Shown: positions 1 through 41,520, counted from the stretch's first letter. The stretch: 64,000 nucleotides of DNA from an uncultured Holophagales bacterium (GCA_964603505.1 CAZRVT010000001.1:52215-116214); one strand, 5' to 3'. Notes: a model not told the origin generated them from the letters alone. Made by a program: numbers and translations.

Positions 1-75
1 GAGGACGACCGCACCGACCGCACCACCCTCAATCGCACCCTCTTCGTCAAGTTCTCCTACGCCTGGAGGCCGTAG
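1..75 (+). CDS. 3' end of a CDS entering from the left window edge (..LNRTLFVKFSYAWRP*), product unknown
   Basis: Open frame from position 1 to TAG at 73-75. No family recognised. Confidence 0.25.
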   Translation, partial: EDDRTDRTTLNRTLFVKFSYAWRP

Positions 76-188
76 AAGCGGTTCCAAGTCTCCGGTTCCA
101 AGTTTCAAGTTCTACCCCACCAACTTGCGGCATGCGGTTCGCGATCACGGCCGGGTCCGTCCGTGCGCTGCGGCCTCCGGGCCTCTGG

Positions 189-602: not shown

Positions 603-604
603 GG

Positions 605-1318
605 TCAGTACTCCAGCCCCCGCCCCCCCTCCCCCCGGAAGGCGAGGCGGATCTCCTCCAGGGTGGGCGATTCGAGGGTGAAGACGGTCACGCGGGTCCC
701 CACCTCGCCGGGGCGGTGGGCGTCGGAAGCGGTGTAAAGGGGCAGGGCGGTCCCTTCGATCCGGCGCACGGCGGGGTCGCGCACCTCCAGGGCGTCCAGG
801 GGGAGGCCCGGGGGGATGAACCCCAATTGTCCGAGGATGCCGAACCCCTCCCGGTCGGCGTGGGCGGCGGCGGCGAGGCCGCCCAGGGCGTGGGCCCGGG
901 CCGCCAGCTCCTCGAGGGAGAGGTCCACGGCGCCCCACAACAATTTATGACAGAAGCCATTCACGCCGTCGGCTTCGTCGGCCACCACCTGCTCGCGGGC
1001 GGTCTGTTCGTCCGCGGTGTCGGGCAGGCGCGCGTGGACGGCCTCCTGGAAGGCGAAGAGGGGGCCGTCGCCGGGGAAGAGGACGATCAGGTGCACCTCT
1101 TCGCGGCTCGTCACCTCCATCCCCCCGAGGACGGCGGGGCCGCCGGCGCACGCCCGCCGGACGGCGGGGACGTTGAGGGCGGCGTTGTGGTCGGTGACCG
1201 CGATCAGGTCGAGCCCCGCCGCCCGCGCGGCCGCGGCGAGGCGGCGCGGGGAATTGTCCAATTCCGCGCAGGGGGAGAGGCAGGTGTGCAGGTGGAGGTC
1301 GGCGCGGAAGGCGCGCAT
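605..1318 (-). CDS. PHP-domain metal-dependent phosphoesterase
   Basis: N-terminal DLHLHTCLSPCA..IAVTDHN PHP signature. 237 aa. Confidence 0.8.
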   Translation of the reverse strand: MRAFRADLHLHTCLSPCAELDNSPRRLAAAARAAGLDLIAVTDHNAALNVPAVRRACAGGPAVLGGMEVTSREEVHLIVLFPGDGPLFAFQEAVHARLPDTADEQTAREQVVADEADGVNGFCHKLLWGAVDLSLEELAARAHALGGLAAAAHADREGFGILGQLGFIPPGLPLDALEVRDPAVRRIEGTALPLYTASDAHRPGEVGTRVTVFTLESPTLEEIRLAFRGEGGRGLEY

Positions 1319-1322
1319 CGGC

Positions 1323-1667
1323 TCACGGCTTGAGGCCGAGTTCGTACAGCCGGCAGGCCGCGGCGTAGGCCCCCAGGGGCGTTCCCAGGACGGGCACGCC
1401 CTCCTCCTCGGCCTTCGTCAGCACCTCCGCGTCGGGGCGCCGGCCGTTGGGCAGGAGGATCCCCGCCAGCTCCTTCATCACCGCCACCGGGATGACGTTG
1501 AGATGGACCTGGATGGTGATCCACAGCTCTCCGGGGCGGGCGCGCGCCAGGACATCGGAGAGCATGTCCCCGGTGTAGACCATCGTCACGGGGCGGTCGA
1601 GCCGTCCCCCGCCCGCGAGCACCTCCAGCGGCATCCGTTCGACCAGGTCGGCCAGGGTCATAGGCAC
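1323..1667 (-). CDS. DRTGG-domain protein
   Basis: 114 aa with TMVYTGDMLSDVL..ITIQVHLNV pattern typical of stand-alone DRTGG proteins. 10-nt overlap with the upstream CBS gene. Confidence 0.7.
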   Translation of the reverse strand: MPMTLADLVERMPLEVLAGGGRLDRPVTMVYTGDMLSDVLARARPGELWITIQVHLNVIPVAVMKELAGILLPNGRRPDAEVLTKAEEEGVPVLGTPLGAYAAACRLYELGLKP

Positions 1668-2572
1668 ACTCCGAATTCCAGGTCGGTGAATTCACCGACT
1701 TTCGAGTCCAGCCGCATCTCGTCGGCCAGCTCCCGGATGTTGGGGAGCCCCATCCCGGCGCCGAAGCCCATGGCCCGCACCCAGTCCGGGGCCGTGGAGT
1801 ACCCGGGCGTGAGGGCCTTCTCGATGTCCGGGATCCCCGGGCCGCGGTCCCGCACCCGCACCGTGACCCGCTCTTTGTCCACCCGCGCCTCCAGGGTGCC
1901 GCCGGGGGTGTAGATGACGAGGTTCATCTCCGCCTCGTAGGTGGCGATGGCCACCCGCCGGACCGTCTCGGGGGGGACGCCCAGCCGGAGGAGGCTGGTC
2001 CGCAGCCGGCTGGAGCACGAGCCCGCCCGCTGGAAATCGCCGCCCGCCACCTGATAGCGAAAGGCAATGGCGACGTCGTCGGCGAGGATGTCCTCGAAGA
2101 TGTGGCTGGCGCGGTAGCGGTGGATCTCCTCCTCCCGGAAGTCCACCTCCATCTGCTTGAGCAGGCACCGCAGGATGTCCCCCTTGGTCAGGATCCCCAC
2201 CAGGCGCCCCGTGGAGGGATCCACCACGGGGAGCCGGCCGTACCCCAGGGCTTGGAACCGCTCCAGGGCCCGCGCCAGGGGGTCGTCGGCGGCAACGGCG
2301 CTCACCTCGCGGCTCATCACGGCCCCCACCGCGGCCTTCGCCTCCCCGTTCATCAGGCATTTGATCAGGTCTTCAACCGTGACGATGCCGGCGAGGCGCC
2401 CCCGCGACACCACCGGGACGCCCGAGATGCGGCGGTCGCGGAGCAGCGTCCGCAGGCGGGCCATGGGGGTCCGCGGGGTGACCGTGACGGGGTCGGGGGT
2501 CATCGCCTGCCCCACTTTCAGACGGTAGGTGAGCTCCTGGAGGATGGAGGCGTCCCGGGGGGGTTGTCTCAC
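1658..2572 (-). CDS. CBS-pair + GHKL ATPase-domain signalling protein
   Basis: Two CBS repeats (ISGVPVV..GIVTVEDL and LPVVD..GILTKGDI) followed by a HATPase-like C-terminus (RDRGPGIPD, GFGAGMGLPN). Confidence 0.8.
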   Translation of the reverse strand: MRQPPRDASILQELTYRLKVGQAMTPDPVTVTPRTPMARLRTLLRDRRISGVPVVSRGRLAGIVTVEDLIKCLMNGEAKAAVGAVMSREVSAVAADDPLARALERFQALGYGRLPVVDPSTGRLVGILTKGDILRCLLKQMEVDFREEEIHRYRASHIFEDILADDVAIAFRYQVAGGDFQRAGSCSSRLRTSLLRLGVPPETVRRVAIATYEAEMNLVIYTPGGTLEARVDKERVTVRVRDRGPGIPDIEKALTPGYSTAPDWVRAMGFGAGMGLPNIRELADEMRLDSKVGEFTDLEFGVCL

Positions 2573-2958
2573 GGCCGTCGGAGTTTCCCGGGCCGGGCCG
2601 TCCCCGGCGGCACCTCGGAACTCCCCCGGAGTCCCGCTTGGTAGAGGCGCCCGCAGCTCTCGAAGAGCGGCAGGTGGGTGGCCAGCAGGACGATGCCGCG
2701 GGCCCGCGCGAGCTCCACGATCTCGGGCGAGGGGCGCTTGCCGCGGACGAAGCAGATGGCCATGATGCCCGACATCTCGGCGGTGTAGACCACCTGGAGG
2801 GTGGTGAGCCCCGAGAGGAGGATGCTATTGGGCTCCATCAGGGCGAGGACGTCGCTCATGAGGTCCGCCCCGCCCCCGCACTGGATTTCCTGATCGATGG
2901 ACTCCGAGCCGCAGAGCACCGAGGCCTCCAGGATCTCGCGGATCTTGATCAGGTTCAT
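2569..2958 (-). CDS. DRTGG-domain protein (second copy)
   Basis: Similar to the 1323-1667 protein (LLSGLTTLQVVYTAEMSGI..). Start placed at the MNLIKIRE Met rather than the ORF's upstream Met. Confidence 0.6.
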   Translation of the reverse strand: MNLIKIREILEASVLCGSESIDQEIQCGGGADLMSDVLALMEPNSILLSGLTTLQVVYTAEMSGIMAICFVRGKRPSPEIVELARARGIVLLATHLPLFESCGRLYQAGLRGSSEVPPGTARPGKLRRP

Positions 2959-3029
2959 GCCGGACGCGCCCCCTTCTTCCCTCGATTCCCCCTTCATCAT
3001 AGCATACCGGCCCGGCGCTCCGCGCGGCA

Positions 3030-3058
3030 TTGACACCGGGGGCGGGAACGGCTACACT
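3030..3058 (+). promoter_or_regulatory. sigma70-type promoter for tRNA-Arg (TTGACA-N17-TACACT)
   Basis: TTGACA at 3030-3035, 17-nt spacer, TACACT at 3053-3058, 12 nt upstream of the mature tRNA 5' end. Confidence 0.45.
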
Positions 3059-3070
3059 GGGGCCTCTTTC

Positions 3071-3144
3071 GGGGTTGTAGCTCAGCAGGATAGAGCAACG
3101 GATTCCTAATCCGTAGGCCGCCGGTTCGACTCCGGCCAGCCCCA
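3071..3144 (+). tRNA. tRNA-Arg (anticodon CCT)
   Basis: Cloverleaf: acceptor GGGGTTG/CAGCCCC, D-arm AGCTCAGCAGGATAGAGC, anticodon loop TTCCTAA, T-arm GGTTCGACTCC, discriminator A. No encoded CCA. Confidence 0.9.
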
Positions 3145-3439
3145 TTCTTCCATCTATCAATGATTCAAAGGCCTTTCAAGCCGTTGCCGGCCTTCCGGCC
3201 CACGGCATGGATGAGCGTCCATAGGCCATGGATGGGCCTCCCAGTGTACCCAAAGTGTACCCGTCCGTTTTTGCTATTTTGAGGACCAGTCTGGCTGAAA
3301 AAGGGACGAGCCCAAAAACTAAAAGATTTCCACCGATGGACGGAATTTCGGAATGTATTGAGCCATCCTCAATTTTTTCACGTCCTGATCTCAAAATCCG
3401 AGGGCAACACTGTGGGGATCATTTCCCAAAGGGGTTGTT

Positions 3440-4080
3440 ATGGGAAATGCCCGATACAAGCATTTGAGTGCGGAAGAACGAGAAGAACTGACGATCGATT
3501 GGGCGTTGGGGATGAGGCTGCGGGCCATGGCCCGCAGCCTCCAGCGCCCCCCTCCGACGGGAGGTGGCTCGCCATGGGCCGTCCGGGCATGACGCCCGGG
3601 CCGCCGACGCCCCGCAGCGGGCCCAGGCCCGGAGCTGGCGTCCCCGGCGGAGGCGAACATGGCTGCATCCTCGGCGCCGGGAGGCCGTCGTGGGACATGG
3701 CCCGCGGATCGCCCGCGCCGATTGTGGCCCGGTTGAAACTGGACGAGGCCCGCCGGGCCTTCGAACGCTGCCTCCGCCCCGTTCCCGAACCCCTCCGCCC
3801 GTCCCTCACCGATAGCCAGGACAAGGCAATGGCCGACCATGAACGCTTGGCCCGGAACCTTCCTATCCGCATCTTCTTCGCCGCCCCCCCACAGCCCATG
3901 GCCGCGGGGCACCATCGAGAACATCAGCGGCCTGCTCCGCCGGTCCCTCCCGAAAGGGATCGACCTCCCCTGTTACTCCCAACGGGGACTCAACGCCATC
4001 GCCGCCAGTCCCCACACCCGCCCTGCCAAGGCTTGGGATGGCCTCCTTTCGACGAAGTCTTTGTGCGGCCCTAACCTAAT
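3440..4080 (+). mobile_element. Decayed IS30-family transposase (multiple frameshifts and internal deletion)
   Basis: Frame 1: MGNARYKHLSAEEREELTIDWALGMRLRAMARSLQRPPPT.. matches the IS30 N-terminal HTH (YxHLTxEER..G.S.R.IAR.L.R..ST). A different frame at 3839-4096 gives ENISGLLRRSLPKGIDLPCYSQRGLNAIAASPHTRPAKAWDGL, matching the IS30 C-terminus (NENTNGLLRQYFPKGTDLS..LD.IA..LN.RPRK.LG). About 640 bp versus about 1 kb for an intact gene. Confidence 0.6.
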
Positions 4081-4223
4081 CCAGTGTTGCACTTGAATCT
4101 TGAAAGCAGTGCGAAGCGACGATTATTGTTCGAGCAGGTTTTGGATGAGGTCATCCGCTCTCTTGATTTCAACCCGTGCCCCGGAATACAATGAAATTCG
4201 CCGTCATCCATAGAGGAGGACAC

Positions 4224-7200
4224 ATGGCCAAACCCCTGAACATTTCCGTAAAGAAAGCCCCCTGGGTGGCCAAGCAGGAGAAGATCAAGAATGTCTTTCC
4301 GGGCCCCCGGGGTGAATTGCTTTTGATCACCAATGCTTCAATCTATCAGGCCTTGCCGATGGGCGACTGGCGCCTCATCGGTCCTTTGCCAGACATAGAT
4401 GATTCGAAGATCCATGCCGGCATGGGAAGGGATATGATCCTTTTATACTACAGGGATCTCGGCCTCGTGCAGGGGTATTCAATGCGCGGGACACTCCTGT
4501 GGACCGAGGCATGGCCGGAGGATCATCGCTGTTTCATGGTCGATGGCGAGGATATATTTTCCTGCGGGCAACACGAATATCTCTTCGCGCACGGCCGCTT
4601 TTCCCCAAAAGGGATCGAACGCATTCGATTCTTCCCGGAGACGATAGTGGTGGATGGGAATCGCATTATTTCTTTCGATCTGGTTTTCCCTTCGGAGGAT
4701 TCCATCATCCTCGTGGATAAAGGCTATTTGCAGACGGTCGTGTCCCTGTCCAAATCCTTTCTGGCAGGCGGACCCGCCGGCGCGCGCCTGCTGGACCGGA
4801 CGGAACGAGACACGGTGTACCCCAACTGCCATGTGCTCGTCATCAAGGGCCAGGTGTTTCTCCTGAACGATCTGGACGACCCGGCGCTTTCCTTCGTTCC
4901 GGGCCCCAACCCGATCCGCCCCCTCCCCGTGCCGGCCAGATTAGCCCAGTTCGGACTTCTGGAACGGTTCCGCCGGGGGACCCCCAGGGACCTGGATGAG
5001 GTCGCGCTGGTGATTGCCCATTTGAGCGCCTTGGCAGCATCCGACCGTTCATCATCCTTCGACGACCAGGAGACCCTGATCTCCATCCGGCCGGATACAA
5101 CCGGTGTGACCGCCTACACCAGCCACCGGACCCACCACTATCCCCCCGGTGCGCGATGGCTTTCTTCCCTAAAGGAAGTGGACCGCCGGGAAATCCGGTC
5201 CGCGGACGATTATGCAGGCGCCATGGCCATGTTCACCCTGCTCCAGAAGGGCGACGCCGGCCTGGCGGCGGCCATGAAGTTTCTGGTAAGGGCCCCAAGT
5301 TCCGTGCAACGGATGATCTGTGGCTATCTCCTGGCGCGGGGCCCCGGCGCAGTGGATCGCATGCTCTCCCTGATCAATCCCACCCTCCTGTCCCTCCCTC
5401 CCCAGGTCCGGGACGAAGCCAACATCTCCGCCCTCATCGGGGCTTTCCCGGACCGCCTCCCCCGGCACGCCCCGCGTGCGCTGAGGGAACGGGCTCTACC
5501 CATCCAAGCCCGATGGGCCTGGCTGGAAGGCCTGGGCCAGTCTGGAGGGTGGCGGAGGGGAACGAATGGAATCGTCTTGTGCTCCACTTCCCATCGCCGG
5601 CCGCCCCTCCCCACCGGCCTGGTCCATCAGCTCCGCAAAGAACTCAAGGGGCCGGCGCCGGTCCAAGCGGCCATGGCCTTGGACCGGCTGGGATTACCGG
5701 ATCGGCTGAACGCGCTGCGCCGGAACTTCGACAAGGAGGACTCCTATGATGCCTCCTCGGCGCTCATGACATTGATCAGCCATGAGACGGACCCGGAGCG
5801 CCTCTCCCGATTGTTCGAGGAGCGCTTCCCCCCCAACGGTCCGGCCCCTCGGATCCGAATGCCCGACCTGGACGATCACCTTCCCGGAAATATGCGGGAG
5901 CTCGCGGCCGGCATCCTGAGCGGCCATCTCTTCGGGCGGGACCCCGCGGCCTATTTCGGTGACTTCATCGAAAGCCAATTGCAATGGCATCTATCCGCCT
6001 TCCTGAAGATCACCCAGGAGAAACAGCTCCCGCTCATTCTGCGATTCCTGCGGGCCGCCCTGGTCGCCCTGAGGGAAGATCAGGACGATCCCTTGGGACG
6101 CGCCCTGGGCGAAGAGACCATGCAGCGGGTCGTCCGGGACACGGTCTCATTTGGCTTCCATCTGCCCATCGCGGACGCCATCGCTTTAGGTGCCCTGATT
6201 CTCACCGGTATGCCCACGATGGCTGATTTCGTTCAGGGGGACAAACTCTCCCGCATTCTTGGCATTCTCCTGGGGCGCCGCGTTGCCGGCCAAGCATCCC
6301 CCTTCTCCGGGCCCAGTGCCCAGTGGACGCAAAGGCATTTTGAACTGGTGCAGCCGATGGTGGAATACCTCAATATCCACCGGCCGGAGGAGGCCTTTCG
6401 GATCCAGGCCATGTTCGCGTTCCGGGGCCTGCCGGTCCATGTCATGGGGCTCGTCTCCACGAAAGGACCGCGCACCCACGCCGACCGTCTGCAGGCCTTC
6501 GGGACCCAGACCGACGGGGCCACCCTGCCGTCGCCGGAGGCGCTGGAGGACCGGGTCCGAGCCGGGATGCGGCATGGAGACCTGCTCGACCGCTTCACCT
6601 GGGCCCAGATCTGGGCGTATCGGGGCTTGGAGGCGTGGGAAGAGGAGATGCCGGACCTGTTGCGCCGTCTGCACCCGCGGTCTCCCTGGACGACGGGCCT
6701 GGCGTTATCGGTCCTCTCCCCCGAGGATCGGCAGGAGGCCGTCCGGAAACATCTCCGGGCGCCCTGGCTCACCGACGCCCACCTTTCGCTCTGGCTCAAG
6801 GGGTGGGACGCCCTGTCGAGCATCGGCTTCATCCGGGACGCGGCGAAGGCCAGGCACTGGGAACCTTCAATGGTTTTGGGCCTGCTGGAGGCCAAGTTCC
6901 ACTCGGCCCGCCCCGAAGTGAGCCAGAACGCGATGGAGGCCTACATGGACCTGTGGTCGGCCTCCCAACCGGACGATGAATCCGGCTTGATGGGCGCCAT
7001 GTATTGCGTCGAGGAGGGTCGTCTGGGTCACTCTCCGGACAAGGCCCTGGACCTTCTGGAAAGAACCATCAAGCGGCTCACCGACTCGGATAGAATGGAC
7101 GCATCCCAGGCCGAGGCATACCGCAAACGGGTGGCGCGCGCGAGAAGGCGGCTGAAAAGCGGCCGCATCGAACCCCCCGAAGAAAGCGGCATCGGCGCCT

Positions 7201-7247
7201 TGAGCTTGCCCGAAAAGGATCCGTCCGGCCGCCCAAGCCAATCTTGA
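4224..7247 (+). CDS. Large (1007 aa) mostly alpha-helical hypothetical protein
   Basis: Long ORF; strong RBS AGAGGAGGA 5 nt before the ATG at 4224 (the track's 4176 start is upstream of the RBS). First ~700 nt are markedly AT-richer than the genome. No Walker A or other catalytic motif recognised. Confidence 0.7.
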   Translation: MAKPLNISVKKAPWVAKQEKIKNVFPGPRGELLLITNASIYQALPMGDWRLIGPLPDIDDSKIHAGMGRDMILLYYRDLGLVQGYSMRGTLLWTEAWPEDHRCFMVDGEDIFSCGQHEYLFAHGRFSPKGIERIRFFPETIVVDGNRIISFDLVFPSEDSIILVDKGYLQTVVSLSKSFLAGGPAGARLLDRTERDTVYPNCHVLVIKGQVFLLNDLDDPALSFVPGPNPIRPLPVPARLAQFGLLERFRRGTPRDLDEVALVIAHLSALAASDRSSSFDDQETLISIRPDTTGVTAYTSHRTHHYPPGARWLSSLKEVDRREIRSADDYAGAMAMFTLLQKGDAGLAAAMKFLVRAPSSVQRMICGYLLARGPGAVDRMLSLINPTLLSLPPQVRDEANISALIGAFPDRLPRHAPRALRERALPIQARWAWLEGLGQSGGWRRGTNGIVLCSTSHRRPPLPTGLVHQLRKELKGPAPVQAAMALDRLGLPDRLNALRRNFDKEDSYDASSALMTLISHETDPERLSRLFEERFPPNGPAPRIRMPDLDDHLPGNMRELAAGILSGHLFGRDPAAYFGDFIESQLQWHLSAFLKITQEKQLPLILRFLRAALVALREDQDDPLGRALGEETMQRVVRDTVSFGFHLPIADAIALGALILTGMPTMADFVQGDKLSRILGILLGRRVAGQASPFSGPSAQWTQRHFELVQPMVEYLNIHRPEEAFRIQAMFAFRGLPVHVMGLVSTKGPRTHADRLQAFGTQTDGATLPSPEALEDRVRAGMRHGDLLDRFTWAQIWAYRGLEAWEEEMPDLLRRLHPRSPWTTGLALSVLSPEDRQEAVRKHLRAPWLTDAHLSLWLKGWDALSSIGFIRDAAKARHWEPSMVLGLLEAKFHSARPEVSQNAMEAYMDLWSASQPDDESGLMGAMYCVEEGRLGHSPDKALDLLERTIKRLTDSDRMDASQAEAYRKRVARARRRLKSGRIEPPEESGIGALSLPEKDPSGRPSQS

Positions 7248-7329
7248 AATAGCCCGGCTTGCCGCGCCCGAAGAGTCATGGGCCGAACGCTTCCCTCGGC
7301 GGCACGGGGGTATCGGCCCTTTTGATATA

Positions 7330-9789
7330 ATGGCTTCAATGGACGAGGCCCGGTTCCACGAACTTGCCCGGCAAGTCAACCGCTATTGGGGGGCGCATCT
7401 CTTTCCTCGCGTTGTGGACCAGGGGCCCGCGCGGATGGATTGGTACTATGTCTCCGTGGCCCGGGACCAACTGCTCAAGGGCGACGACCGGGTTCTACAC
7501 CTTCTCTTGCACGAATGGGGCCACCGAACCATTTCACCCGCCAACATCGAGCAGGGGATCGCGTGGGGCGTTTTTCTTGAACAGGAGGGGATGGGGTCCG
7601 CGGAAGCGCAGGACCTTGTCAACATCGCCGCCGATGTCTGGGTGGACGACCGCTATCTCTCGCTCGATCCGTGGAAAGAGCTCTACGCGCGTTCCATCAC
7701 CCGCCAAGTCGGGGAGATCCGGGAACAGCTCGCCCAGGACCGGCGACGGGGGGATTTCCCTTACGCCGACAAGGTCCTGCGTTTTATGGGCGGAATCTAC
7801 GAAGCCATGCTCGTGGCCCATGGGTACCCTCCGCCGCCGGGGGGAGGCGGCAAGGGAGACGCGCCCGCCAAAGCCGGACGGCGGGCCTACGCGGCCCTGA
7901 CCGATCCCCTATCGCCGGTGGAGGAGCGGCTGAGGGCCCTGGTCCGCGAGGGGGGCCGCTATGTCGCCGACCTTAACCGCCTGAAGCGTCTGGTGGACCT
8001 GTTGGCCCGGTGGGGCCGCTCTTCCATCCTTCCCGAGGACGCCGACCTTCCCTTGGACCTCTCCCGCCTCGCCCGCCTTCTGCGCCAGATGAGGGTCAAG
8101 AGCGAAACGGCCGGCAACTCCAGCCTCGTCCCTGCCCGTCACCGGCGGGCCTTGGCGATGGAAGTGCGCAAATTGGAGCTCTACGAGCTCGTGGTCACCC
8201 CCATGGAGCGGTTGTTGCGGCGGCGCACCCCCCGCGAGCGCTGCGGGTTCCAGATTTGGAACGCCGGAATGCCCATGCGTTGGCTCTTGGTGGAGGAGAC
8301 GATCCAGCGGCACGGCGAGGTCCTGGCCAATGTGACCACCCTCCGACGGGCCCATCGGAACCGGGGTCCGGAATCGTCTGCCGGCTCGGCCGCCCATGTG
8401 TGCTGCGTCATCGACGACAGCGGTTCCACATCGGGGGCCGCCATTCAACGGGAGCAGGAGGCCTCGTTCGCCGTCATCCAGACGGCCCGGCGGAAGCGCG
8501 ACCTCTTTTCCGTCGTCGTTTTCGGGACGCGCGTCACCCATGCGATGGAGCCGGGATTCGATTACCTGGCGGGGGAAGACCTCATTTGTTCGCTCGGAGG
8601 GCTCAGCGGGGGAACCGCCCTTCTGCCCGCCCTGCAGCAGGCCCTGGCCTACTCCGAGCGCGGGACGAGCACCTCCACCCTGGTGTTCACCGACACGGGC
8701 GTGTATGACCTGGAAGATTGCCTGCCGGCCATGGAGGTCCTCGCGCGGCGGGGGCGCCTGGTCCTTTTCTGTTTCGCCTCCTCTGCGGAGGTGGCGGCAT
8801 TCCGACGCAAGATCCCCAGGCGCGCCAACCCGACCTTTTTCAACAGCGTCCTGCCCCTCCTCTCGGAGCGGCGGGTGACCTTCCGAGACAAGGTCTTCGA
8901 AAGCCCCGGCTACATCATGTTTCTGGACCGCAACCCCCATGACGAGGCGAGCAACGAGATCCCGCGCGCGTTCATGGACCGCATCGACTTCGGCTTCGAC
9001 CTTCCGGTCATGCATATCGACGAGACCCTGCGGCTATACGACCGGATCACGGTCCGACAGAAACTGCACTGGGGCTCCCTGGAGCACCTGGCGCCGGCGG
9101 TATTGCGCGTGGAAGAACTGGTCCGAATCTGGGCCGCGGTCCAGGAGGTCGCCATCGATATTCGGCAGCGGGTGTGGGCCTGCATGCTCTCGGACGCCTT
9201 CCGCCTCTGCATCAAGCAGGAGCGCTCGGAGCTCTCCCCGGATTTCGTTCTGAACTGCGCCGACTGCAAGTTCCAGGCGGAGATCTGCGCCCATCTCCAG
9301 CAGATCCCCGGCCACCGGTTCACCCACAGCACCCTGCGGCTGGCCCAGGCCCGGGCCTGGCTCAACGGGCAGGCGCGCGTGTCCGAAGAAGACATCACCT
9401 GGGCCCTCCCCTACACCCTCGCCCATCGCCTCGTCCTCAAGCCGGAGCTCATGCGGCAGACCCCCTCGACGGCCCAATGGCTCCACAAGACCGCTTGCGG
9501 AGAGATCCTGGCCAACAAGGAACCGGTGTGGCGGGCGGCCCTCGACGGGTTCATGGCCGGCGACGCCGCCGCCCTGGAGAGGACCTGGCAGCAGGATTTG
9601 GTCATCCAGACCATGTTCATGTTCATGCGCACCGAGGGTTACCGGGACTTCATCACCCCCTACATCGAGTCGGGTCCCAAGGCCAAGGTCGAGCGCCTCC
9701 GCGCCGCCCCCCCCCGTGGACGGCACCGGAAAGGCCCCGGCCCGGAAGGCCAAGCGCCACCGGTAGGGGCTACGCCATTTCGATCATGA
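7330..9789 (+). CDS. Putative metallopeptidase-like (HExxH) + VWA/MIDAS-domain protein (DUF2201-type), 819 aa
   Basis: N-terminal LLLHEWGHRT (HExxH). Mid-protein VCCVIDDSGSTSGA (DxSxS MIDAS) ..VVVFGT..GGTALLPAL..TSTLVFTDTG (VWA fold). Confidence 0.7.
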   Translation: MASMDEARFHELARQVNRYWGAHLFPRVVDQGPARMDWYYVSVARDQLLKGDDRVLHLLLHEWGHRTISPANIEQGIAWGVFLEQEGMGSAEAQDLVNIAADVWVDDRYLSLDPWKELYARSITRQVGEIREQLAQDRRRGDFPYADKVLRFMGGIYEAMLVAHGYPPPPGGGGKGDAPAKAGRRAYAALTDPLSPVEERLRALVREGGRYVADLNRLKRLVDLLARWGRSSILPEDADLPLDLSRLARLLRQMRVKSETAGNSSLVPARHRRALAMEVRKLELYELVVTPMERLLRRRTPRERCGFQIWNAGMPMRWLLVEETIQRHGEVLANVTTLRRAHRNRGPESSAGSAAHVCCVIDDSGSTSGAAIQREQEASFAVIQTARRKRDLFSVVVFGTRVTHAMEPGFDYLAGEDLICSLGGLSGGTALLPALQQALAYSERGTSTSTLVFTDTGVYDLEDCLPAMEVLARRGRLVLFCFASSAEVAAFRRKIPRRANPTFFNSVLPLLSERRVTFRDKVFESPGYIMFLDRNPHDEASNEIPRAFMDRIDFGFDLPVMHIDETLRLYDRITVRQKLHWGSLEHLAPAVLRVEELVRIWAAVQEVAIDIRQRVWACMLSDAFRLCIKQERSELSPDFVLNCADCKFQAEICAHLQQIPGHRFTHSTLRLAQARAWLNGQARVSEEDITWALPYTLAHRLVLKPELMRQTPSTAQWLHKTACGEILANKEPVWRAALDGFMAGDAAALERTWQQDLVIQTMFMFMRTEGYRDFITPYIESGPKAKVERLRAAPPRGRHRKGPGPEGQAPPVGATPFRS

Positions 9790-9861
9790 TCATGCGCCCC
9801 ATGGGCGCAGTCCCGGCGACGAGGAGGGCGATGATCCGCTCCCACAGGCCGCCGGCGCGCA

Positions 9862-10202
9862 TCACGGGCGCACCCGCTTGAGCCAGCCCCCCAGCATCTT
9901 CCCCACGGGGTCCAGTTCCGTACAGAGGTGGTGGTACTTCTTCCGCCGGAGGTACCCCATCCCCGCCGCCAGGCGCAGGGTGAGGCGGAAGCCGTCAGGG
10001 CGGCCGAGGCCTCGCGCACCGCCCGAGGCGGGTCGAGGCCGTTCAATGCCCGGACGCAGGCGTCGCGGACGGCGAATAATTCGTCCTCCAGCCGCTTCCC
10101 CAGCGTGAAGCGGTGGTCGCGGGGGAACCGGCCGATTGGCGGCAGGAGCCACTCCAGGATGGATTGCATTTTCATCACCACAGGATAGTCGGTGTCGGTC
10201 AT
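9862..10202 (-). pseudogene. avd: avd (DGR accessory variability determinant) homologue with a single-nucleotide frameshift near 9996
   Basis: Frame A gives MTDTDYPVVMKMQSILEWLLPPIGRFPRDHRFTLGKRLEDELFAVRDACVRA..REASAAL (Avd hallmark FPR[DS][HE][KR]F.LG.R[IL]E). Frame B continues DGFRLTLRLAAGMGYLRRKKYHHLCTELDPVGKMLGGWLKRVRP* (Avd C-terminal LRF..RLA......Y..L...L.EIGKMLGGW). The junction gccctg/acggcttc would read ..AALDGFR.. if one G were restored. RBS GGGGGA before the ATG at 10202. Confidence 0.65.
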
Positions 10203-10274
10203 CTTGTCCCCCACCCACCAGGCAGTGGGCAGATAGCCAATGGAAAGGAGCGGGAACAGCGTTCCCCCGGGTGG

Positions 10275-10751
10275 TCACTCCCCCTGTTCCAAGTATTCCT
10301 TTTTCCCGAGAAGAAAGAGAAGATCTTCCTGGTCGCGCGGCCGCACGCCCCGTTTGGTCTCGATCAGCGTGGAAAGGCCGCACAGCGGGATGGTCGAACC
10401 GTCCAGGACCAGTTCCTCCACATCGCCGACCGCGGTCTCGAATGTGACCTCCCCCACCCTACCGATGAGGTCAATGACGACCTCCCCGGATGCCGGAGCG
10501 AACCGGACGACCGCATATTGTGCTACCTCCCCGTCCCCCAGCCCCAGGATCTCCTCCGAGCCATACGCCCGGTGGAGCGCCTCCTTCATCCTCCGGATGT
10601 TTTCGGGATCGGGGTCCACGAGCAGGTCGATGTCCTGCGTCGTCCGGAAGTAACCGTGAAGGGCGATAGCGCAACCGCCGATCACCACATAGCGGACCCC
10701 GGCGCCGTTGAGGGCCCGGCATAGCTTAACGAGTTCGTCCTTGATTTCCAA
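10275..10751 (-). CDS. Nucleotidyltransferase-fold protein (minimal NTase, GG..DxD)
   Basis: LEIKDELVKLCRALNGAGVRYVVIGGCAIALHGYFRTTQDIDLLVD matches the [GS]G-x9-13-DxD NTase core. No in-frame ATG; start assumed TTG at 10751, so boundary uncertain. Overlaps the upstream small ORF by ~25 nt. Confidence 0.5.
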   Translation of the reverse strand: MEIKDELVKLCRALNGAGVRYVVIGGCAIALHGYFRTTQDIDLLVDPDPENIRRMKEALHRAYGSEEILGLGDGEVAQYAVVRFAPASGEVVIDLIGRVGEVTFETAVGDVEELVLDGSTIPLCGLSTLIETKRGVRPRDQEDLLFLLGKKEYLEQGE

Positions 10752-10956
10752 GGCGGATCCGCGCCCGCATGGCCTGCGCCTGGGCCTCGTGAAAGGTTTC
10801 GAAACGGTACAGTCCCGGGGGCATTTGGATCGTGGGGGTGAACGCCAGGGCACTCTCAATATGCGCCCGATCGGGCGTGAAACGCCGGCTGATCCCTTTT
10901 CCCCCGGCCTCGAAACGCTCCGCGTCCTCGAAGCTCTTAAATTTAAAAATGGACAT
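10726..10956 (-). CDS. Small hypothetical protein (76 aa)
   Basis: ATG with good RBS (AAAGGTGA-N4-ATG); MSIFKFKSFEDAERFE.. Local GC lower than genome. No family recognised. Confidence 0.45.
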   Translation of the reverse strand: MSIFKFKSFEDAERFEAGGKGISRRFTPDRAHIESALAFTPTIQMPPGLYRFETFHEAQAQAMRARIRLGNQGRTR

Positions 10957-11120
10957 GGATCACCTTTCTCTATGATGATACCACACGACCTTCCCGTCCA
11001 TTCTCCCGGCAGATGGCCAATGGGATAGGGGGCAACGCCGGCGGCCTGACGGCCGCGATGGGAAAAAACCCCAAGTCCATCCCCCGCCCCCAAACCCCAA
11101 AACCGAAACCAAAAGCAAGG

Positions 11121-12989
11121 TCACCTGTCCTGGGCGCAACGGAAGCCGAGGTAGCAGTCCCCGCGGCCGGGGTCGCCCCCGTTGCGGTTGGAGACGCGCA
11201 GGTCCCCGGGGTGGAAGTACCAGGAACCGCCGCGCAATATCCGAGATTCGCTACCGCCTGTAACCCAAGCCCGGCCATCCATTGGGGCGCCCTGGTAATT
11301 ACCGTTCCCCCGGTCTTCGCACCACTCCCACACATTCCCCGCCAGGTCCAGGTGCCCGAACGGACCCATCCCCTCCGGATACTCGCCCACCGCCGAGGGG
11401 TGGCCGAGAGCTTCATCATAATTGGCCCGGCCCGCGTTCGGCTCCCCGTTCCCCCACGGATATTTCCGCCCATCCTTCCCCTTTGCCGCATACTCCCACT
11501 CCGCCTCGCTCGGCAACCGCAGCCCCGCCCATTTAGCATATGCTTTTGCTTCTTCCCAATTCACGTTTACCACCGGGTGGTCGGGGTAGCCCTCCAGGTA
11601 ATTGCCTTCCAGCTCATCGAATGTGCCATCGTTGCGCTCCATGAATTCCTCCAGGTCCCCGGCCCGGGCGCTCTTAAGATAGGCCAGAAACTGCCGGTTC
11701 GTCACCGGATGCTTGTCAAGCCAGAAGCCCGTTCTGAAGGTCACCTTGTGGACGGGCTTCTCATCGCCATAGGCCTCTTCATCTTCGCTCCCCATCATAA
11801 ACTCCCCGGGCGGCACCCAGACCATGACATGTCCGTTCTTAAGCTCCTTCTCGTAATAGCCCTTTTCGTTCTTCCGGATCCCCTCCCGCTGGTGAGGCGG
11901 CGGCAGATTGGGGTCTTGGGCCGCCACGCGCTCCTCCTCCAGCCCTTCCAGCCGCTTCTTCGCCGCCCCGGCGTCCGGCCGCTTGGAGCCATCCTTGTTC
12001 AGCAGTGTTCCCAAGGCGCCCCACAGCGCATCGTCCGCTTCCTGGGGCCGGCGCGCCTCCACCGTGCAGTGCTGGGAGCGCACCAGCTCCGCGTCCGGAT
12101 CGGTGAACGGGGCCCGCCCCGCCAGCATCTCGTACAACATTATGCCCACCGCGTAGACGTCCACCTTCCCCGTGATCTCCTCCCCCCGGATCCGCTCCGG
12201 CGCCATGTACCACGGCGTCCCCATGAACTTCCGGGCCTCCGACGCCGCCGACACCTGGCTCCGCGTGATATCCACGCTGATGCCGAAGTCGATGATCTTG
12301 GCGTTGCCGGTCTTCTTTTCGATCAGGATGTTCTCCGGCTTGATGTCCAGGTGGTAGATGCCCTCGTGGTGGGCCTCGGCCAGCCCCTCCAGGATCTGGG
12401 CGCAGATCTTGACCGCCTCCGGCTCAGGAAGGGTCTTGCGCTCATTAAGGACCTCCCGCAAACTCTGTCCTTCAACATAGGCCACGACTAGATATTCGTA
12501 CTCCCCATCCCTGCCCAGGTCGAAGACCCTGTTAATGTGGCGGTGGCTGAGACTGCTGAGGCGCCGGTATTCTTTGCGGAGGTTGTCAAGGGAGACGGGA
12601 TCGTATTCCCGCCCGGCCTTCAGGACCTTGAGGACTTTCTTGTCTCCAGTGCGCTCGTCGTGGGCCAGGAGGACATCGCCCTGTCCCCCGCTGGAAAGGG
12701 GCCGCTCCACCTTGTACCGTCCTTCGAGAACAGTGCCGGGACCAAGCATGGGCATGAAGGTGCCAACGGGGGCCGGGGGGATGGGGGACCGGGCCGGAAC
12801 CCCGGCGGGGCGGGGGGGCGGAGGCGGCCCCGACGGCGTGGGCGTCATCCCCCCCAGCGCCGCCCGCTCCTCGGGGGCCAGATCGGCCAGGATCTCCGCC
12901 TTGAGCTCCCGGTACATCTCCTCGCCGATCTCCTTGGCCAGGAAGCGTTCTCTCAGCACCCTCAATTGGCGCCGGGCATCGTCGGTCAT
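11121..12989 (-). CDS. SHOCT-like N-terminus + Ser/Thr protein kinase + C-terminal FGE-sulfatase/C-type-lectin-fold domain; candidate DGR variable protein
   Basis: Kinase motifs: SSGGQGDV (Gly loop), VLKVLK (Lys), YHLDIKPENILI (non-RD catalytic loop), IIDFGIS (DFG), YMAPE. C-terminal domain WLDKHPVTNRQFLAYL..NVNWEEAKAYAKWAG..RLPSEAEWEYAA..GNVWEWCED..RILRGGSWY..LGFRCA is the FGE-sulfatase fold. No signal peptide or TM, so predicted cytoplasmic. Confidence 0.85.
   Translation of the reverse strand: MTDDARRQLRVLRERFLAKEIGEEMYRELKAEILADLAPEERAALGGMTPTPSGPPPPPRPAGVPARSPIPPAPVGTFMPMLGPGTVLEGRYKVERPLSSGGQGDVLLAHDERTGDKKVLKVLKAGREYDPVSLDNLRKEYRRLSSLSHRHINRVFDLGRDGEYEYLVVAYVEGQSLREVLNERKTLPEPEAVKICAQILEGLAEAHHEGIYHLDIKPENILIEKKTGNAKIIDFGISVDITRSQVSAASEARKFMGTPWYMAPERIRGEEITGKVDVYAVGIMLYEMLAGRAPFTDPDAELVRSQHCTVEARRPQEADDALWGALGTLLNKDGSKRPDAGAAKKRLEGLEEERVAAQDPNLPPPHQREGIRKNEKGYYEKELKNGHVMVWVPPGEFMMGSEDEEAYGDEKPVHKVTFRTGFWLDKHPVTNRQFLAYLKSARAGDLEEFMERNDGTFDELEGNYLEGYPDHPVVNVNWEEAKAYAKWAGLRLPSEAEWEYAAKGKDGRKYPWGNGEPNAGRANYDEALGHPSAVGEYPEGMGPFGHLDLAGNVWEWCEDRGNGNYQGAPMDGRAWVTGGSESRILRGGSWYFHPGDLRVSNRNGGDPGRGDCYLGFRCAQDR
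11124..11231 (-). repeat. Putative DGR variable region (VR) at the 3' end of the kinase-FGE gene
   Basis: Coding codons between GGSW and LGFRCA read TAC TTC CAC CCC GGG GAC .. AAC CGC AAC GGG GGC GAC CCC GGC CGC GGG GAC TGC TAC. Almost all are NNC codons reachable from AAC by changes at A positions only, and two AAC are retained. Invariant scaffold (GGSW, LRVS, R, LGFRCA) flanks them. Confidence 0.55.
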
Positions 12990-13246
12990 GCGGTTATTCT
13001 ACCGGGAGATGCCAACGCCTGCAACAATGGTTATAAACGGCCTTCGCCGACAGCGGGTGTGGCTTCCTATTTGCGGGCGGAACGCCACTCCAGGTAATCC
13101 TCCCAGCGGCACCGCCAGCCCACCCCTTCCTCCTGCGTGAAGACGGGGATGCGGCCAGTGAGCCAAGCGCGATTCGGGAGACGCGGGGACTGGCACCACC
13201 CCCTCACCCTGCCCTCCATTCCATTCCCCGTTTTTCTTCCCCACGG

Positions 13247-14707
13247 TCATGATTGATAGATCAGGATCCTCTCCTCCGTCATCTCGTGGATGGCCCACCG
13301 GACGCCCTCCTTGCCCGCGCCCGACTGCTTCACCCCGCCGTAGGGCTGGTGGTCCACCCGGAAACTGGAGGCGTCGTTGACCACCAGGCCGCCGACGTGG
13401 ATCTCCCGGAACGCCTCCTGGATCCAGTCGGCTCGGTTGGTGAAGAGCGCCGCCTGGAGGCCGAACCGGCTGGCGTTGACCAGCTCGATCGCCTCGCGGA
13501 AGTCGGCGAACGGCGTCAGGGTGACGAGCGGGGCGAAGGCCTCCTCGTCCCACACCTTCATCCCCGGCCGGGCCCCCTCGAGCACGACGGGGTGGAGCAC
13601 CTTCCCCTCCCGCCTCCGCGGCGTCAGGAGGTTGCACCCCTTCTCCACCGCCTCGTCCACCCACCCCTCGATCCGCTTGACGGCGCCGGTGTCGATCATG
13701 GGGCCGATGAAGGTCTCCTCGTCGCGGGGGTCGCCCACCTTCAGCTTGACCACGTCGGCCAGCAGCCTCTCGGTGAAGGGGGCATAGACCCGCTCGTGGA
13801 CGAGGATGCGCTGGACCGAGATGCACGACTGCCCGGCGTAGGCCAGGCCCCCGGTGGCGCACTTGACCGCGGCCACGTCCAGGGCGGCGTCGTCGCACAC
13901 GACGACGGCGGCGTTGCCCCCTAATTCCAGGGTGACGAACTTATCATAGGCGCGCCGCTTCACCTCCCAGCCCGTCTCGGCCGAGCCGGTGAAGGAGACG
14001 AAGGCGACCTCGGGGCGGGTGTAGAGTTTCTCGGCGCGGGAGGAGACCATGGGGAGGAACGACACCGCCTCCTCCGGGTAGCCGGCGTCCAGGACCATCT
14101 GCATCAGCTTCCAGGCCGAGAGGGGGGTCTTGGAGGAGGGCTTGAGGAGGAACGGGCACCCGGCCGCCATGGCAGGGGCGAGTTTGTGGGCCACGAGGTT
14201 GAGGGGGAAGTTGAAGGGGGTGATGCCCGCGACGATGCCGCGGGGGAACCGGGCGACGACCCCCACCTTCCCCTCCGCCCACGGGACCCGGTCGAGGGGG
14301 AGCACCTCGCCGCCAATGCGGCGGGCCTCCTCGGCGGCCGTCTCGACGGTGAAGGCGGCCCGCGCCACCTCGGCCCGGGCCTGCCCGAGGGGCTTGCCGG
14401 CCTCCAGGCAGATGGTGGCCGCCAGGTCCTCCTTGTTCTTCTCCACCAGCTCCTTCAGCCGCATCAGGATCTGGTGCTTCATGTAGCCGGAAAGGTTGCG
14501 CGTCTGGTAGAAGCCCCGCTCGGCCTTCTCGACCGCCTTCTGGATGTGCTCCTCCCCCGCCAGGGCGACGAGCCCCACCTCGGAGCCGTCGAAGGGAAAG
14601 GTCACCTTGAGGGGGTCGGGGGTCATGATCCACTCGCCGCCGACCAGCAGGGGGTATTCCGTCACGCGCCATTCCAACTTACCCATCGCCGCCTCCTTGA
14701 ACAACAC
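13247..14707 (-). CDS. NAD(P)-dependent aldehyde dehydrogenase family protein
   Basis: ALDH signatures FTGS.ETG, LELGGNA, catalytic Cys in AGQSCIS, EEAFAP..; 486 aa. Confidence 0.85.
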   Translation of the reverse strand: MLFKEAAMGKLEWRVTEYPLLVGGEWIMTPDPLKVTFPFDGSEVGLVALAGEEHIQKAVEKAERGFYQTRNLSGYMKHQILMRLKELVEKNKEDLAATICLEAGKPLGQARAEVARAAFTVETAAEEARRIGGEVLPLDRVPWAEGKVGVVARFPRGIVAGITPFNFPLNLVAHKLAPAMAAGCPFLLKPSSKTPLSAWKLMQMVLDAGYPEEAVSFLPMVSSRAEKLYTRPEVAFVSFTGSAETGWEVKRRAYDKFVTLELGGNAAVVVCDDAALDVAAVKCATGGLAYAGQSCISVQRILVHERVYAPFTERLLADVVKLKVGDPRDEETFIGPMIDTGAVKRIEGWVDEAVEKGCNLLTPRRREGKVLHPVVLEGARPGMKVWDEEAFAPLVTLTPFADFREAIELVNASRFGLQAALFTNRADWIQEAFREIHVGGLVVNDASSFRVDHQPYGGVKQSGAGKEGVRWAIHEMTEERILIYQS

Positions 14708-41333: not shown

Positions 41334-41356
41334 CCCCCGGCGCCCCGTCCTCCCAC

Positions 41357-41495: not shown

Positions 41496-41520
41496 CGCCG
41501 TTGGAGTGAAAGGGACGACC

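What the first reader, a model, noticed from the sequence alone, without database searches (positions are those of the whole stretch)
3071..13246. tRNA-Arg-flanked accessory segment with decayed IS30 transposase: likely genomic island carrying the DGR cassette and two giant genes
Immediately downstream of tRNA-Arg(CCT) is a ~1-kb stretch with lower GC containing a multiply frameshifted IS30-family transposase, followed by genes with no housekeeping flavour (1007-aa unknown, 819-aa HExxH+VWA, avd, NTase, DGR-type kinase). Core metabolism (ALDH, sdh) resumes at ~13.25 kb. A weak tRNA-3'-like match (ccgccagcccacccc) lies at ~13150.
Basis: partly seen in the sequence, partly recalled or inferred. 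Interest (0 to 1): 0.5.

Follow-up and report, generated by a model that had tools for sequence, protein, structure and literature searches.

The report
Decayed defence-gene islet beside tRNA-Arg
The 10-kb stretch after tRNA-Arg is a strain-specific, compositionally foreign patch holding the broken remains of three known kinds of element (an IS30 insertion sequence, a MoxR-vWA "conflict" system and a diversity-generating retroelement), so it is a gene graveyard rather than a working island or a working DGR.

Summary
These are tRNA-Arg(CCT) at 3071-3144, an IS30 relic at 3385-4109, lower GC, five non-housekeeping ORFs, and core genes resuming at 13247.

The interpretation needs correcting in four ways.
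- The DGR is a fossil. The reverse transcriptase is cut to about 12 codons, avd carries a frameshift, and no template repeat exists in the 64 kb. Only the kinase-FGE target gene is intact.
- The "819-aa HExxH+VWA giant gene" is a deletion fusion. A 497-bp microhomology deletion joined a vWA gene to a bpMoxR AAA+ gene and removed Walker A and B. A relative (L106) still has both genes separate.
- The 1007-aa gene codes convincingly but has no homologue among 1.84 billion cluster representatives.
- No integrase and no att-type repeat exist.

Foreign or accessory status is supported. GC3 is 0.69-0.82 in the segment against 0.92±0.05 for core ORFs. Synteny with Holophagales UBA2201 stops exactly at the aldehyde dehydrogenase (ALDH) stop codon. 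However, that genome continues with mdh and icd rather than tRNA-Arg, so a simple tRNA-targeted insertion is not shown.

Closest known are the DGR-linked MoxR-vWA ternary conflict systems (Kaur 2020; Doré 2024). Verdict: an ordinary, decayed accessory islet of modest interest.

The parts
3071..3144 (+). tRNA-Arg(CCT), intact; left border of the segment
   Evidence: ARAGORN; Rfam RF00005 at 71.8 bits. A sigma-70-like promoter lies at 3030-3058.
3145..3384 (.). 240-bp lower-GC spacer with no recognisable gene
   Evidence: Window 3001-3500 has GC 0.54. This part of the query gave no match in the plasmid blastn search.
3385..4109 (+). IS30-family insertion sequence relic: imperfect 28-nt terminal inverted repeats, and a transposase broken by two or more frameshifts and a ~0.4-kb internal deletion
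   Evidence: IR 3385-3412 / 4082-4109 (I7). blastn to IS30/IS1086 transposase genes at 71-72% identity, E 1e-11. tblastn with the IS1086 transposase places aa 1-40 at 3440-3559, aa 179-274 at 3640-3909 and aa 267-314 at 3887-4030; aa 41-178 are absent.
4224..7247 (+). 1007-aa ORFan with an N-terminal beta-rich region and a long alpha-helical region. It sits where related loci carry a large HEAT-like protein next to the vWA-MoxR pair.
   Evidence: GGAGG lies a few bases upstream of the ATG, and GC3>GC1>GC2 holds in every 300-nt block. Only a self-hit in 5.8e9 and 1.84e9 proteins. No Pfam, NCBIfam, PADLOC, PHROG or PDB match. AF2 pLDDT 41. hhalign against the HEAT-like family A2 is negative.
7339..8829 (+). 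vWA-protein part of the 816-aa fusion ORF: a helical N-domain with the invariant LLHEWGHR motif, then a vWA domain with an intact MIDAS motif (DDSGST...SGGT...TD). The last ~21 codons are lost.
8812..8829 (+). Deletion junction (…KIPRRAN|PTFF…) between the vWA gene and the MoxR gene. It is 497 bp shorter than the intact relative L106 and lies at a short microhomology.
8830..9789 (+). C-terminal two-thirds of a bpMoxR-type AAA+ ATPase (sensor and lid region), lacking Walker A and Walker B, followed by a ~50-aa non-homologous tail
   Evidence: 42% identity to residues 131-397 of the 404-aa bpMoxR of L104. 93% identity to L106 MoxR from 'QRANPTFF' onward. AAA_lid_2 hit. L106 and L104 N-termini carry GTYGTGKT and FLNE and hit PF20030/AAA_5.
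9770..9862 (-). Stub of the DGR reverse transcriptase gene. The start codon overlaps the avd stop. The first ~12 codons (MRAGGLWERII, 9862-9827) resemble DGR RT N-termini; the rest is unrelated and stops after 30 codons.
   Evidence: Sequence read. Compared with the BalMu-1 RT 'MKRLGNLYEQII' and phage Bise RT 'MKRHGNLFEQTF'. No open YxDD-containing RT frame anywhere in the window.
9862..10202 (-). avd (DGR accessory variability determinant) pseudogene with one frameshift near 9985-10010
   Evidence: The N-terminal half alone hits NF033474 at E 1.4e-7. After repairing one frameshift, the 113-aa product matches model positions 2-104 of 104, E 3.5e-21, 75.5 bits against an 80-bit cutoff. It also hits phage Avd proteins.
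10275..10751 (-). 158-aa minimal nucleotidyltransferase-like ORF (GG...HG...DIDLLV motif)
   Evidence: Sub-threshold Pfam hits to NTP_transf_5, DUF6036, AbiEii and DUF2204. Gene call in L022.
10726..10956 (-). 76-aa ORF overlapping the NTase start. Possible partner of the NTase; no homologues.
   Evidence: Gene call. No family hit.
11121..12989 (-). Intact 622-aa Ser/Thr kinase fused to an FGE-sulfatase (C-type-lectin-fold) domain. It is the former DGR target, with a VR-like C-terminus (…GGSWYFHPGDLRVSNRNGGDPGRGDCYLGFRCAQDR, about 11121-11265).
   Evidence: Pfam Pkinase 4.7e-53 and FGE-sulfatase 2e-59, positions 4-254 of 255. No TR-like repeat in the window.
12990..13246 (.). Right border: a 257-bp intergenic stretch before the ALDH stop codon. 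Synteny with UBA2201 starts at 13247-13250.

Best explanation
Positions 3145-13246 form a lineage-specific accessory islet of probably foreign origin in a Holophagales-like acidobacterium. It once held two convergently oriented 'conflict/sensing' modules.

(a) A MoxR-vWA type system read on the + strand. It comprised a large variable protein (now the 1007-aa ORFan), a vWA protein with an HExxH helical N-domain, and a bpMoxR AAA+ ATPase.

(b) A diversity-generating retroelement read on the - strand. It comprised a kinase-CLec/FGE target with a C-terminal VR, a small NTase pair, avd and an RT, with a TR presumably beyond the RT.

An IS30 element sits at the tRNA-proximal end.

All three mobile or enzymatic engines have since been inactivated.
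- A 497-bp deletion at a microhomology fused vWA to MoxR and removed the P-loop and Walker B, so ATP-driven remodelling is lost.
- A deletion removed all but 12 codons of the RT, together with the TR, and avd acquired a frameshift. Mutagenic retrohoming can therefore no longer occur from this locus, and the VR of the kinase is frozen.
- The IS30 transposase lost ~140 codons and is frameshifted.

The parts that remain intact as reading frames are the ORFan, the kinase-FGE and the NTase pair.

Shown: the anatomy, the deletions, the frameshifts, the atypical composition and the synteny break.
Inferred: horizontal origin, the former functional link between the two modules, and the order of events.
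For: Anatomy and decay:
- IS30 relic.
- The 816-aa ORF equals vWA (aligned to residues 4-481 of the 514-aa P0007) plus bpMoxR (131-397 of 404).
- The intact two-gene arrangement survives in the 63%/93%-identical relative L106. Its MoxR has GTYGTGKT and FLNE upstream of the junction. The deletion measures 497 bp at the motif GATCC…GCCAAC.
- The same vWA-then-bpMoxR order occurs in L104, L112-114 and L115, and the reverse order in the locus of P0009. All four have separate genes.
- avd becomes a full-length match to the DGR Avd model only after one frameshift is repaired.
- The avd stop overlaps an ATG that opens 'MRAGGLWERII', like DGR RT N-termini, and similarity then breaks off.
- No RT motif and no TR exist in the 64 kb.
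- The sequence is identical in a JGI assembly and a Logan assembly.

Accessory status:
- GC3 is 0.69-0.82 against 0.919±0.052.
- Tetranucleotide distance reaches z 4.5.
- The synteny break falls at the ALDH stop.
- The ORFan has no homologue in 1.84e9 representatives.

Link between module types:
- MoxR-vWA ternary systems are frequently coupled to DGRs that diversify FGS/CLec domains. About 80% of cyanobacterial and gammaproteobacterial VMAP systems show this (PMC7159879). DGR targets have been proposed as sensors of such systems, and kinase domains occur among the domains annotated in targets (10.1101/2023.09.22.558884).
Against: - The RT identification rests on 12 codons.
- A second DGR elsewhere in the genome could still supply RT and TR in trans (Kaur et al. 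note TRs located elsewhere). Only 64 kb of sequence, plus gene calls for a further ~10 kb to the left, were examined.
- Homologous vWA-bpMoxR loci (L104, L112-115) show no DGR nearby. The adjacency here may therefore be coincidental clustering rather than a former functional unit.
- The closest kinase-FGE homologues examined (P0011, P0012) have no RT within 6 kb.
- Horizontal origin is inferred from composition and from a single related genome.
- The fusion protein keeps an open frame of 816 codons with coding-type GC3, so some residual function is not excluded.
- The JGI and Logan assemblies may derive from the same reads, so population heterogeneity is untested.
Confidence: 0.7

Rival explanations
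1. A classical tRNA-targeted genomic island. A tyrosine-integrase element inserted into the 3' end of tRNA-Arg(CCT), ending just before ALDH, and it brought a working DGR and two large cargo genes.
For: The segment begins at the 3' end of the tRNA. Composition is atypical. A mobile-element relic lies next to the tRNA. Synteny breaks at the other end.
Against: No integrase gene or relic was found. No direct repeat of the tRNA end lies at the far border. The related genome has mdh and icd, not tRNA-Arg, beyond ALDH. The DGR is non-functional.
Confidence: 0.15
2. The locus is still functional. The vWA::MoxR fusion is a genuine single-chain variant working without ATP hydrolysis, or with a MoxR supplied in trans. 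The kinase VR is still diversified by a DGR RT/TR encoded elsewhere.
For: The fusion is in frame and open for 816 codons with coding-like GC3 (0.82-0.90). The MIDAS motif is intact. The kinase-FGE and the ORFan are intact. Trans-acting TRs are documented (PMC7159879).
Against: Every homologous locus examined keeps vWA and MoxR as separate genes with Walker motifs. avd, which retrohoming requires, is frameshifted. No TR lies in the 64 kb.
Confidence: 0.1
3. The segment is not foreign. It is an old, lineage-specific region sitting at a chromosomal rearrangement breakpoint, and its lower GC3 reflects relaxed selection on decaying genes.
For: The nearest genome differs on both sides of the breakpoint. 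Several genes are visibly decaying. GC of the MoxR part is near native (GC3 0.90).
Against: The intact, clearly coding ORFs (ORFan GC3 0.77, kinase 0.82) are also atypical. The region contains an IS and systems known to travel horizontally. No homologues occur in the related genome or elsewhere.
Confidence: 0.1
4. The true element is a ~41.5-kb block (3145-44597) bounded by the tRNA and by the 41-nt copy of its 3' half at 44598-44638.
For: A direct repeat matches 35 of 41 nt, running from the anticodon loop to the acceptor end. This is the form expected of a displaced att half-site.
Against: The intervening 31 kb carries sdhABCD, dnaB, mla, tRNA-Asn, 6S RNA, rny and ymdB with native GC3 of 0.91-0.95. 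Positions 13-23 kb are collinear with UBA2201.
Confidence: 0.03

Closest known systems
MoxR-vWA-centric ternary conflict systems (Kaur, Burroughs, Iyer & Aravind 2020, eLife, PMC7159879), nearest the beta-propeller class whose ATPase defines Pfam PF20030 bpMoxR
   Same: A vWA protein with an intact MIDAS motif is encoded immediately upstream of a MoxR-clade AAA+ gene. Intact relatives (L104, L106, L112, L115) hit PF20030/AAA_5/AAA_lid_2. A large, fast-evolving third protein lies adjacent. The location is a variable region, next to a DGR with an FGE/CLec target, as in many VMAP-type systems.
   Different: The ATPase core is deleted here. The vWA protein has an N-terminal helical HExxH domain and no C-terminal beta-propeller. 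The third component is not VMAP, iSTAND or FtsH by Pfam: it is a HEAT-like family in relatives and an ORFan here. No effector domain is recognisable.
Diversity-generating retroelements with kinase-FGE/CLec targets (Wu et al. 2018, PMC5758913, lists a target composition with a kinase domain; Doré et al. 2024, PMC10907252)
   Same: The order target(VR at the C-terminus of an FGE-sulfatase fold)-avd-RT is kept, with avd and RT translationally coupled. The Avd matches the DGR Avd model along its full length after repair.
   Different: No RT beyond 12 codons, no TR, and avd is frameshifted. An NTase-like pair is intercalated between target and avd. It is a fossil rather than an element.
tRNA-associated genomic islands / integrative elements (general knowledge, e.g. 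Williams 2002 on tRNA sublocations; recalled, not read here)
   Same: The segment starts at the 3' end of a tRNA gene, has atypical composition, holds accessory 'defence-like' cargo, and contains an IS relic.
   Different: No integrase, no att direct repeat at the distal end, and the empty site is not observed in any relative.
IS30 family (IS1086 of Cupriavidus metallidurans used as the reference)
   Same: The N-terminal HTH segment and the C-terminal DDE-region segment are recognisable (65% identity over 48 aa). There are terminal inverted repeats of ~28 nt.
   Different: The relic is 725 bp instead of ~1.1 kb. About 140 codons are missing and there are at least two frameshifts, so it cannot transpose on its own.

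Membership tests
Diversity-generating retroelement (DGR) | Reverse transcriptase gene of the DGR clade | tested here: not met
   Only a 12-codon N-terminal stub (9862-9827) remains. No open frame with a YxDD motif other than dnaB. No RT family hit among the precomputed Pfam annotations of genes called across 1121-22989.
Diversity-generating retroelement (DGR) | TR/VR repeat pair differing at adenines of the TR | tested here: not met
   No repeat of 11100-11330 in the 64 kb. The only 62-nt, 71% match lies inside ymdB and its mismatches are not adenine-specific. The rest of the genome was not searched.
Diversity-generating retroelement (DGR) | Avd accessory protein | tested here: inconclusive
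   Present as a pseudogene. There is a full-length match to NF033474 (75.5 bits, cutoff 80) only after one frameshift is repaired.
Diversity-generating retroelement (DGR) | Target protein with a C-terminal C-type-lectin / FGE-sulfatase fold carrying the VR | tested here: met
   FGE-sulfatase matches positions 4-254 of 255 and ends 3 residues before the stop codon.
MoxR-vWA ternary conflict system | MoxR-clade AAA+ ATPase with Walker A/B | tested here: not met
   Residues 1-145, including GTYGTGKT and FLNE, are deleted. Only the region from 'RANPTFF' to the lid remains.
MoxR-vWA ternary conflict system | vWA co-chaperone protein with a MIDAS motif, encoded next to MoxR | tested here: met
MoxR-vWA ternary conflict system | Third conserved component (VMAP, iSTAND, FtsH, or a beta-propeller fused to vWA) | tested here: not met
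   The 1007-aa neighbour has no Pfam hit and no homologue. The vWA protein is too short for, and lacks, a C-terminal propeller. Relatives carry HEAT-like proteins instead.
tRNA-integrated genomic island | Site-specific recombinase (integrase) gene | tested here: not met
   No integrase family among the precomputed Pfam annotations of called genes from ~9.4 kb left of the window to 22989. No hit in the direct scans. The 240-bp spacer 3145-3384 was not profile-searched, because one search failed.
tRNA-integrated genomic island | Direct repeat of the tRNA 3' part at the distal end | tested here: not met
Best direct match scores 8.5 against a null of 8.8±1.0.
tRNA-integrated genomic island | Atypical composition and absence from related genomes, with the empty site conserved | tested here: inconclusive
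   Composition is atypical and the genes are absent from UBA2201 at this locus. However, the empty site 'tRNA-Arg|ALDH' is not seen: UBA2201 has mdh and icd there. The metagenome scan gave only distant loci without a tRNA.
IS30 family insertion sequence | Single DDE transposase ORF flanked by terminal inverted repeats | tested here: inconclusive
   The IRs are present. The transposase is recognisable but fragmented and internally deleted, so it is a relic of a member.

The most novel reading that the evidence does not exclude
The vWA(HExxH)-bpMoxR pair plus a large alpha-solenoid neighbour (a HEAT-like family in L104, L112 and L115, and the homologue-free 1007-aa protein here) may represent a fifth, undescribed class of MoxR-vWA ternary conflict system. 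In this lineage it would have been wired to a DGR-diversified kinase sensor. The ORFan would be a newly evolved, hyper-divergent sensor or effector component that survives as the only working part.
Probability: 0.15. Interest if true: 0.5.

Novelty: new member of a known kind. Interest (0 to 1): 0.3.

Why it matters
The main value is as a correction. Automatic or by-eye annotation would list this locus as a DGR and as a "MoxR-like ATPase/VWA" giant protein, whereas both are inactivated.

The locus is a clean natural example of how conflict and defence modules die.
- A microhomology deletion fuses a co-chaperone to its ATPase.
- The RT and TR of a DGR are lost while the diversified target gene is retained with a frozen variable region.

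It also adds an acidobacterial case to the reported physical association of DGRs with MoxR-vWA systems. It flags a vWA-bpMoxR subfamily with HEAT-like partners that does not fit the four published classes. None of this bears on a long-standing open question.

Tried and rejected
- Candidate TR at 43978-44039 (62 nt, 71% complementary to the VR). Rejected: it lies inside ymdB and its mismatches are not at adenines.
Rejected as chance.
- Metagenome scan with the CBS-HATPase flank to find relatives of the tRNA locus. It returned only ≤63%-identical loci, and none of the 41 scanned had a tRNA, so it was uninformative.
- Exact look-ups of the ALDH and of the 819-aa start variant failed because the start codons were wrong.
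- The two exact-protein look-ups that returned contigs long enough to span the islet (L022, L023) were 100% identical to the window, so there is no variation to exploit.
- Single-sequence AF2 of the ORFan gave pLDDT 41 and was unusable, so no fold search was run on it.
- PDB sequence search, hhalign against the HEAT-like family, PADLOC and PHROGs for the ORFan were all negative.
- The closest kinase-FGE homologues (P0011, P0012) were inspected for intact DGRs, and none lay within 6 kb.
- Exact searches of the tRNA half-copy and of the tRNA 3' half in viral contigs found nothing.
- A Pfam scan of raw frames of the IS and spacer failed on stop codons and was replaced by tblastn with IS1086.
- Extending 10 kb left of the window found no integrase and no mdh or icd.

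Full report
**Observation**

The window is GC-rich (0.675±0.024 in 2-kb windows). It is 100% identical to part of a 179-kb JGI metagenome contig (3300037501, Ga0394875_0000085) and to two Logan contigs. tRNA-Arg(CCT) lies at 3071-3144. Downstream, GC falls to 0.53-0.60 up to ~4750 and stays at 0.60-0.68 until ~13 kb. Tetranucleotide distance from the rest of the window reaches z = 4.5.

- A 1007-aa ORF at 4224-7247.
- An 816/819-aa ORF at 7339/7330-9789 with HEWGH, VWA_2 and AAA_lid_2.
- On the minus strand, a Pkinase+FGE-sulfatase protein at 12989-11121, a 76-aa ORF, an NTase-like 158-aa ORF and avd.
- ALDH (14686-13247) and sdhBDCA follow.

**IS30 relic**

Positions 3385-4109 are bounded by 28-nt imperfect inverted repeats. 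blastn finds IS30/IS1086 transposase genes at 71-72% identity. tblastn with the 339-aa IS1086 transposase places aa 1-40, 179-274 and 267-314 in alternating reading frames, with aa 41-178 missing. It is a dead IS of 725 bp.

**The "819-aa giant gene" is two genes fused by a deletion**

A search of 5.8e9 proteins returned homologues of only 486-532 aa, covering the first 57-59% of the protein. In their contigs each is followed, or in one case preceded, by a separate ~400-aa MoxR-clade AAA+ gene (AAA_5/AAA_lid_2). That gene also hits PF20030 bpMoxR in all but the P0009 locus.

The window protein aligns to residues 4-481 of the 514-aa vWA protein P0007. From residue 492 on, it aligns to residues 131-397 of the 404-aa bpMoxR of L104. 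The closest relative is a 2.2-kb ENA contig, L106, with 63% aa identity in vWA and 93% in MoxR. It has both genes intact and overlapping by 4 nt. Its MoxR N-terminus carries GTYGTGKT (Walker A) and FLNE (Walker B).

**The 1007-aa gene**

It has a GGAGG a few bases upstream of the ATG and coding-type periodicity (GC3>GC1>GC2) in all ten 300-nt blocks. Yet it has no relative other than itself in the word-indexed search or in a full phmmer scan of 1.84e9 cluster representatives. It has no Pfam, NCBIfam, PADLOC, PHROG or PDB match either. Single-sequence AF2 was unusable for fold comparison (pLDDT 41). It suggests a beta-rich N-terminus and ~750 residues of helices.

In L112-114, a 1071-aa HEAT-like protein occupies the same position upstream of vWA-bpMoxR. 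L104 and L115 carry members of the same family downstream. hhalign finds no similarity between that family and the ORFan. The analogy is therefore positional only.

**The DGR is a fossil**

- The avd reading frame breaks near 9985-10010. Joining the two frames gives a 113-aa protein that matches the NCBIfam DGR Avd model from position 2 to 104 of 104 (E 3.5e-21, 75.5 bits against an 80-bit cutoff). The unrepaired N-terminal half gave only 1.4e-7.
- The avd stop overlaps an ATG at 9862 that opens MRAGGLWERII…. This resembles the N-termini of the DGR RTs of phages BalMu-1 (MKRLGNLYEQII) and Bise (MKRHGNLFEQTF). The similarity ends after ~12 codons and the frame stops after 30.
- No other RT-like frame exists in the window.
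- A sensitive search with the VR region finds no template repeat. The one 62-nt, 71% match is inside ymdB, with mismatches at all bases.
- The kinase-FGE target itself is full length, with its FGE domain ending 3 residues before the stop codon.

The RT stub and the non-homologous 3' tail of the MoxR ORF abut within ~190 bp (9640-9827). One deletion may therefore have removed the RT, the TR and the original MoxR end. This is inference.

**Is it an island?**

In favour:
- All four ORFs of the segment have GC3 0.69-0.82, against 0.919±0.052 for 29 core-like ORFs.
- In the only reasonably close genome of the GTDB species set (Holophagales bacterium UBA2201; ALDH 85%, sdhA 91% aa identity), collinearity runs from window 13250 to ~22900 and ends exactly at the ALDH stop.
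- None of the segment's genes has a close homologue in any public genome.

Against a simple tRNA-targeted insertion:
- No integrase family is among the annotated Pfam hits in the segment or in the 10 kb to its left.
- No att-type repeat is present. The best direct match between the two borders scores 8.5 against 8.8±1.0 in shuffles.
- UBA2201 continues beyond ALDH with an epimerase, mdh, icd and SpoIIE, has no tRNA within 10 kb, and shares nothing with window 1-13246.

At least one rearrangement therefore coincides with this border. The IS relic is a plausible agent, though that is inference.

**Comparison with known systems**

Kaur et al. (PMC7159879) defined MoxR-vWA-centric ternary conflict systems in four classes: VMAP, iSTAND, FtsH and beta-propeller. 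They reported that ~80% of cyanobacterial and gammaproteobacterial VMAP systems are linked to DGRs that diversify FGS/CLec domains. Doré et al. (10.1101/2023.09.22.558884, PMC10907252) proposed DGR targets as sensors of such systems, and their annotated target domains include a protein kinase. Wu et al. (PMC5758913) list one DGR target composition with a kinase domain.

The present locus juxtaposes both module types, convergently oriented. Both are inactivated, and its vWA/MoxR subfamily fits none of the four classes. It has an HExxH helical N-domain, no propeller, and a HEAT-like or ORFan partner. The homologous vWA-bpMoxR loci seen here have no DGR nearby, so the functional coupling is not established.

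**Verdict**

This is a real, accessory, compositionally foreign 10-kb islet next to tRNA-Arg. It is made of decayed members of known families, plus one intact ORFan and one intact kinase-lectin gene. The island idea is partly supported, and the "DGR cassette" and "two giant genes" readings are corrected. Interest is modest.

Noticed in passing
window 44598-44638 (+): A 41-nt direct copy (35/41) of the 3' half of tRNA-Arg(CCT), running from the anticodon loop (anticodon CCT kept, position 37 A>G) to the acceptor end. It lies in the 215-bp spacer between ymdB and a double-receiver response regulator. ARAGORN and Rfam do not call it. It looks like a displaced att half-site or tRNA pseudogene, but 31 kb of native core genes separate it from the islet, and there is no exact match in viral contigs.
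   Followed up: partly
L104 (10959-17545), L112/L113 (4273-7488, 13361-16519), L115 (11504-15972): Homologous vWA(HExxH)-bpMoxR pairs are accompanied by a family of 800-1070-aa HEAT-like proteins (23-34% identity, with conserved GFWPFG…W.WW motifs). In L104 there are also Tubulin_2 and a DEAD-like 1279-aa protein. This combination does not match the four published MoxR-vWA classes.
   Followed up: partly
window 39500-42500 and 59000-61000: Two further stretches have low GC (0.59-0.61, z about -3) and deviant tetranucleotide usage. The first covers a secreted M1-type peptidase ORF (HELAHQWWGN, within 38703-41333), zapA and the 6S RNA gene (41848-42026).
   Followed up: no
window 10275-10956 (-): A 76-aa ORF overlaps the start of a 158-aa minimal nucleotidyltransferase (sub-threshold DUF6036/AbiEii/NTP_transf_5 hits). 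The pair is wedged between the DGR target and avd and may be a toxin-antitoxin-like pair. It has no homologues in the family libraries.
   Followed up: partly
L001 11440-21437 (Holophagales bacterium UBA2201): In the related genome the sdh-ALDH cluster is directly followed by further TCA-cycle genes (mdh, and icd within a 1627-aa ORF) and a SpoIIE phosphatase. None of these are present in the 64-kb window or in the 10 kb to its left.
   Followed up: partly
window 11157-11218 vs 43978-44039: A 62-nt, 71% inverted match between the kinase VR region and ymdB could be mistaken for a TR/VR pair. Its mismatches are not adenine-specific, so it is a chance match.
   Followed up: yes
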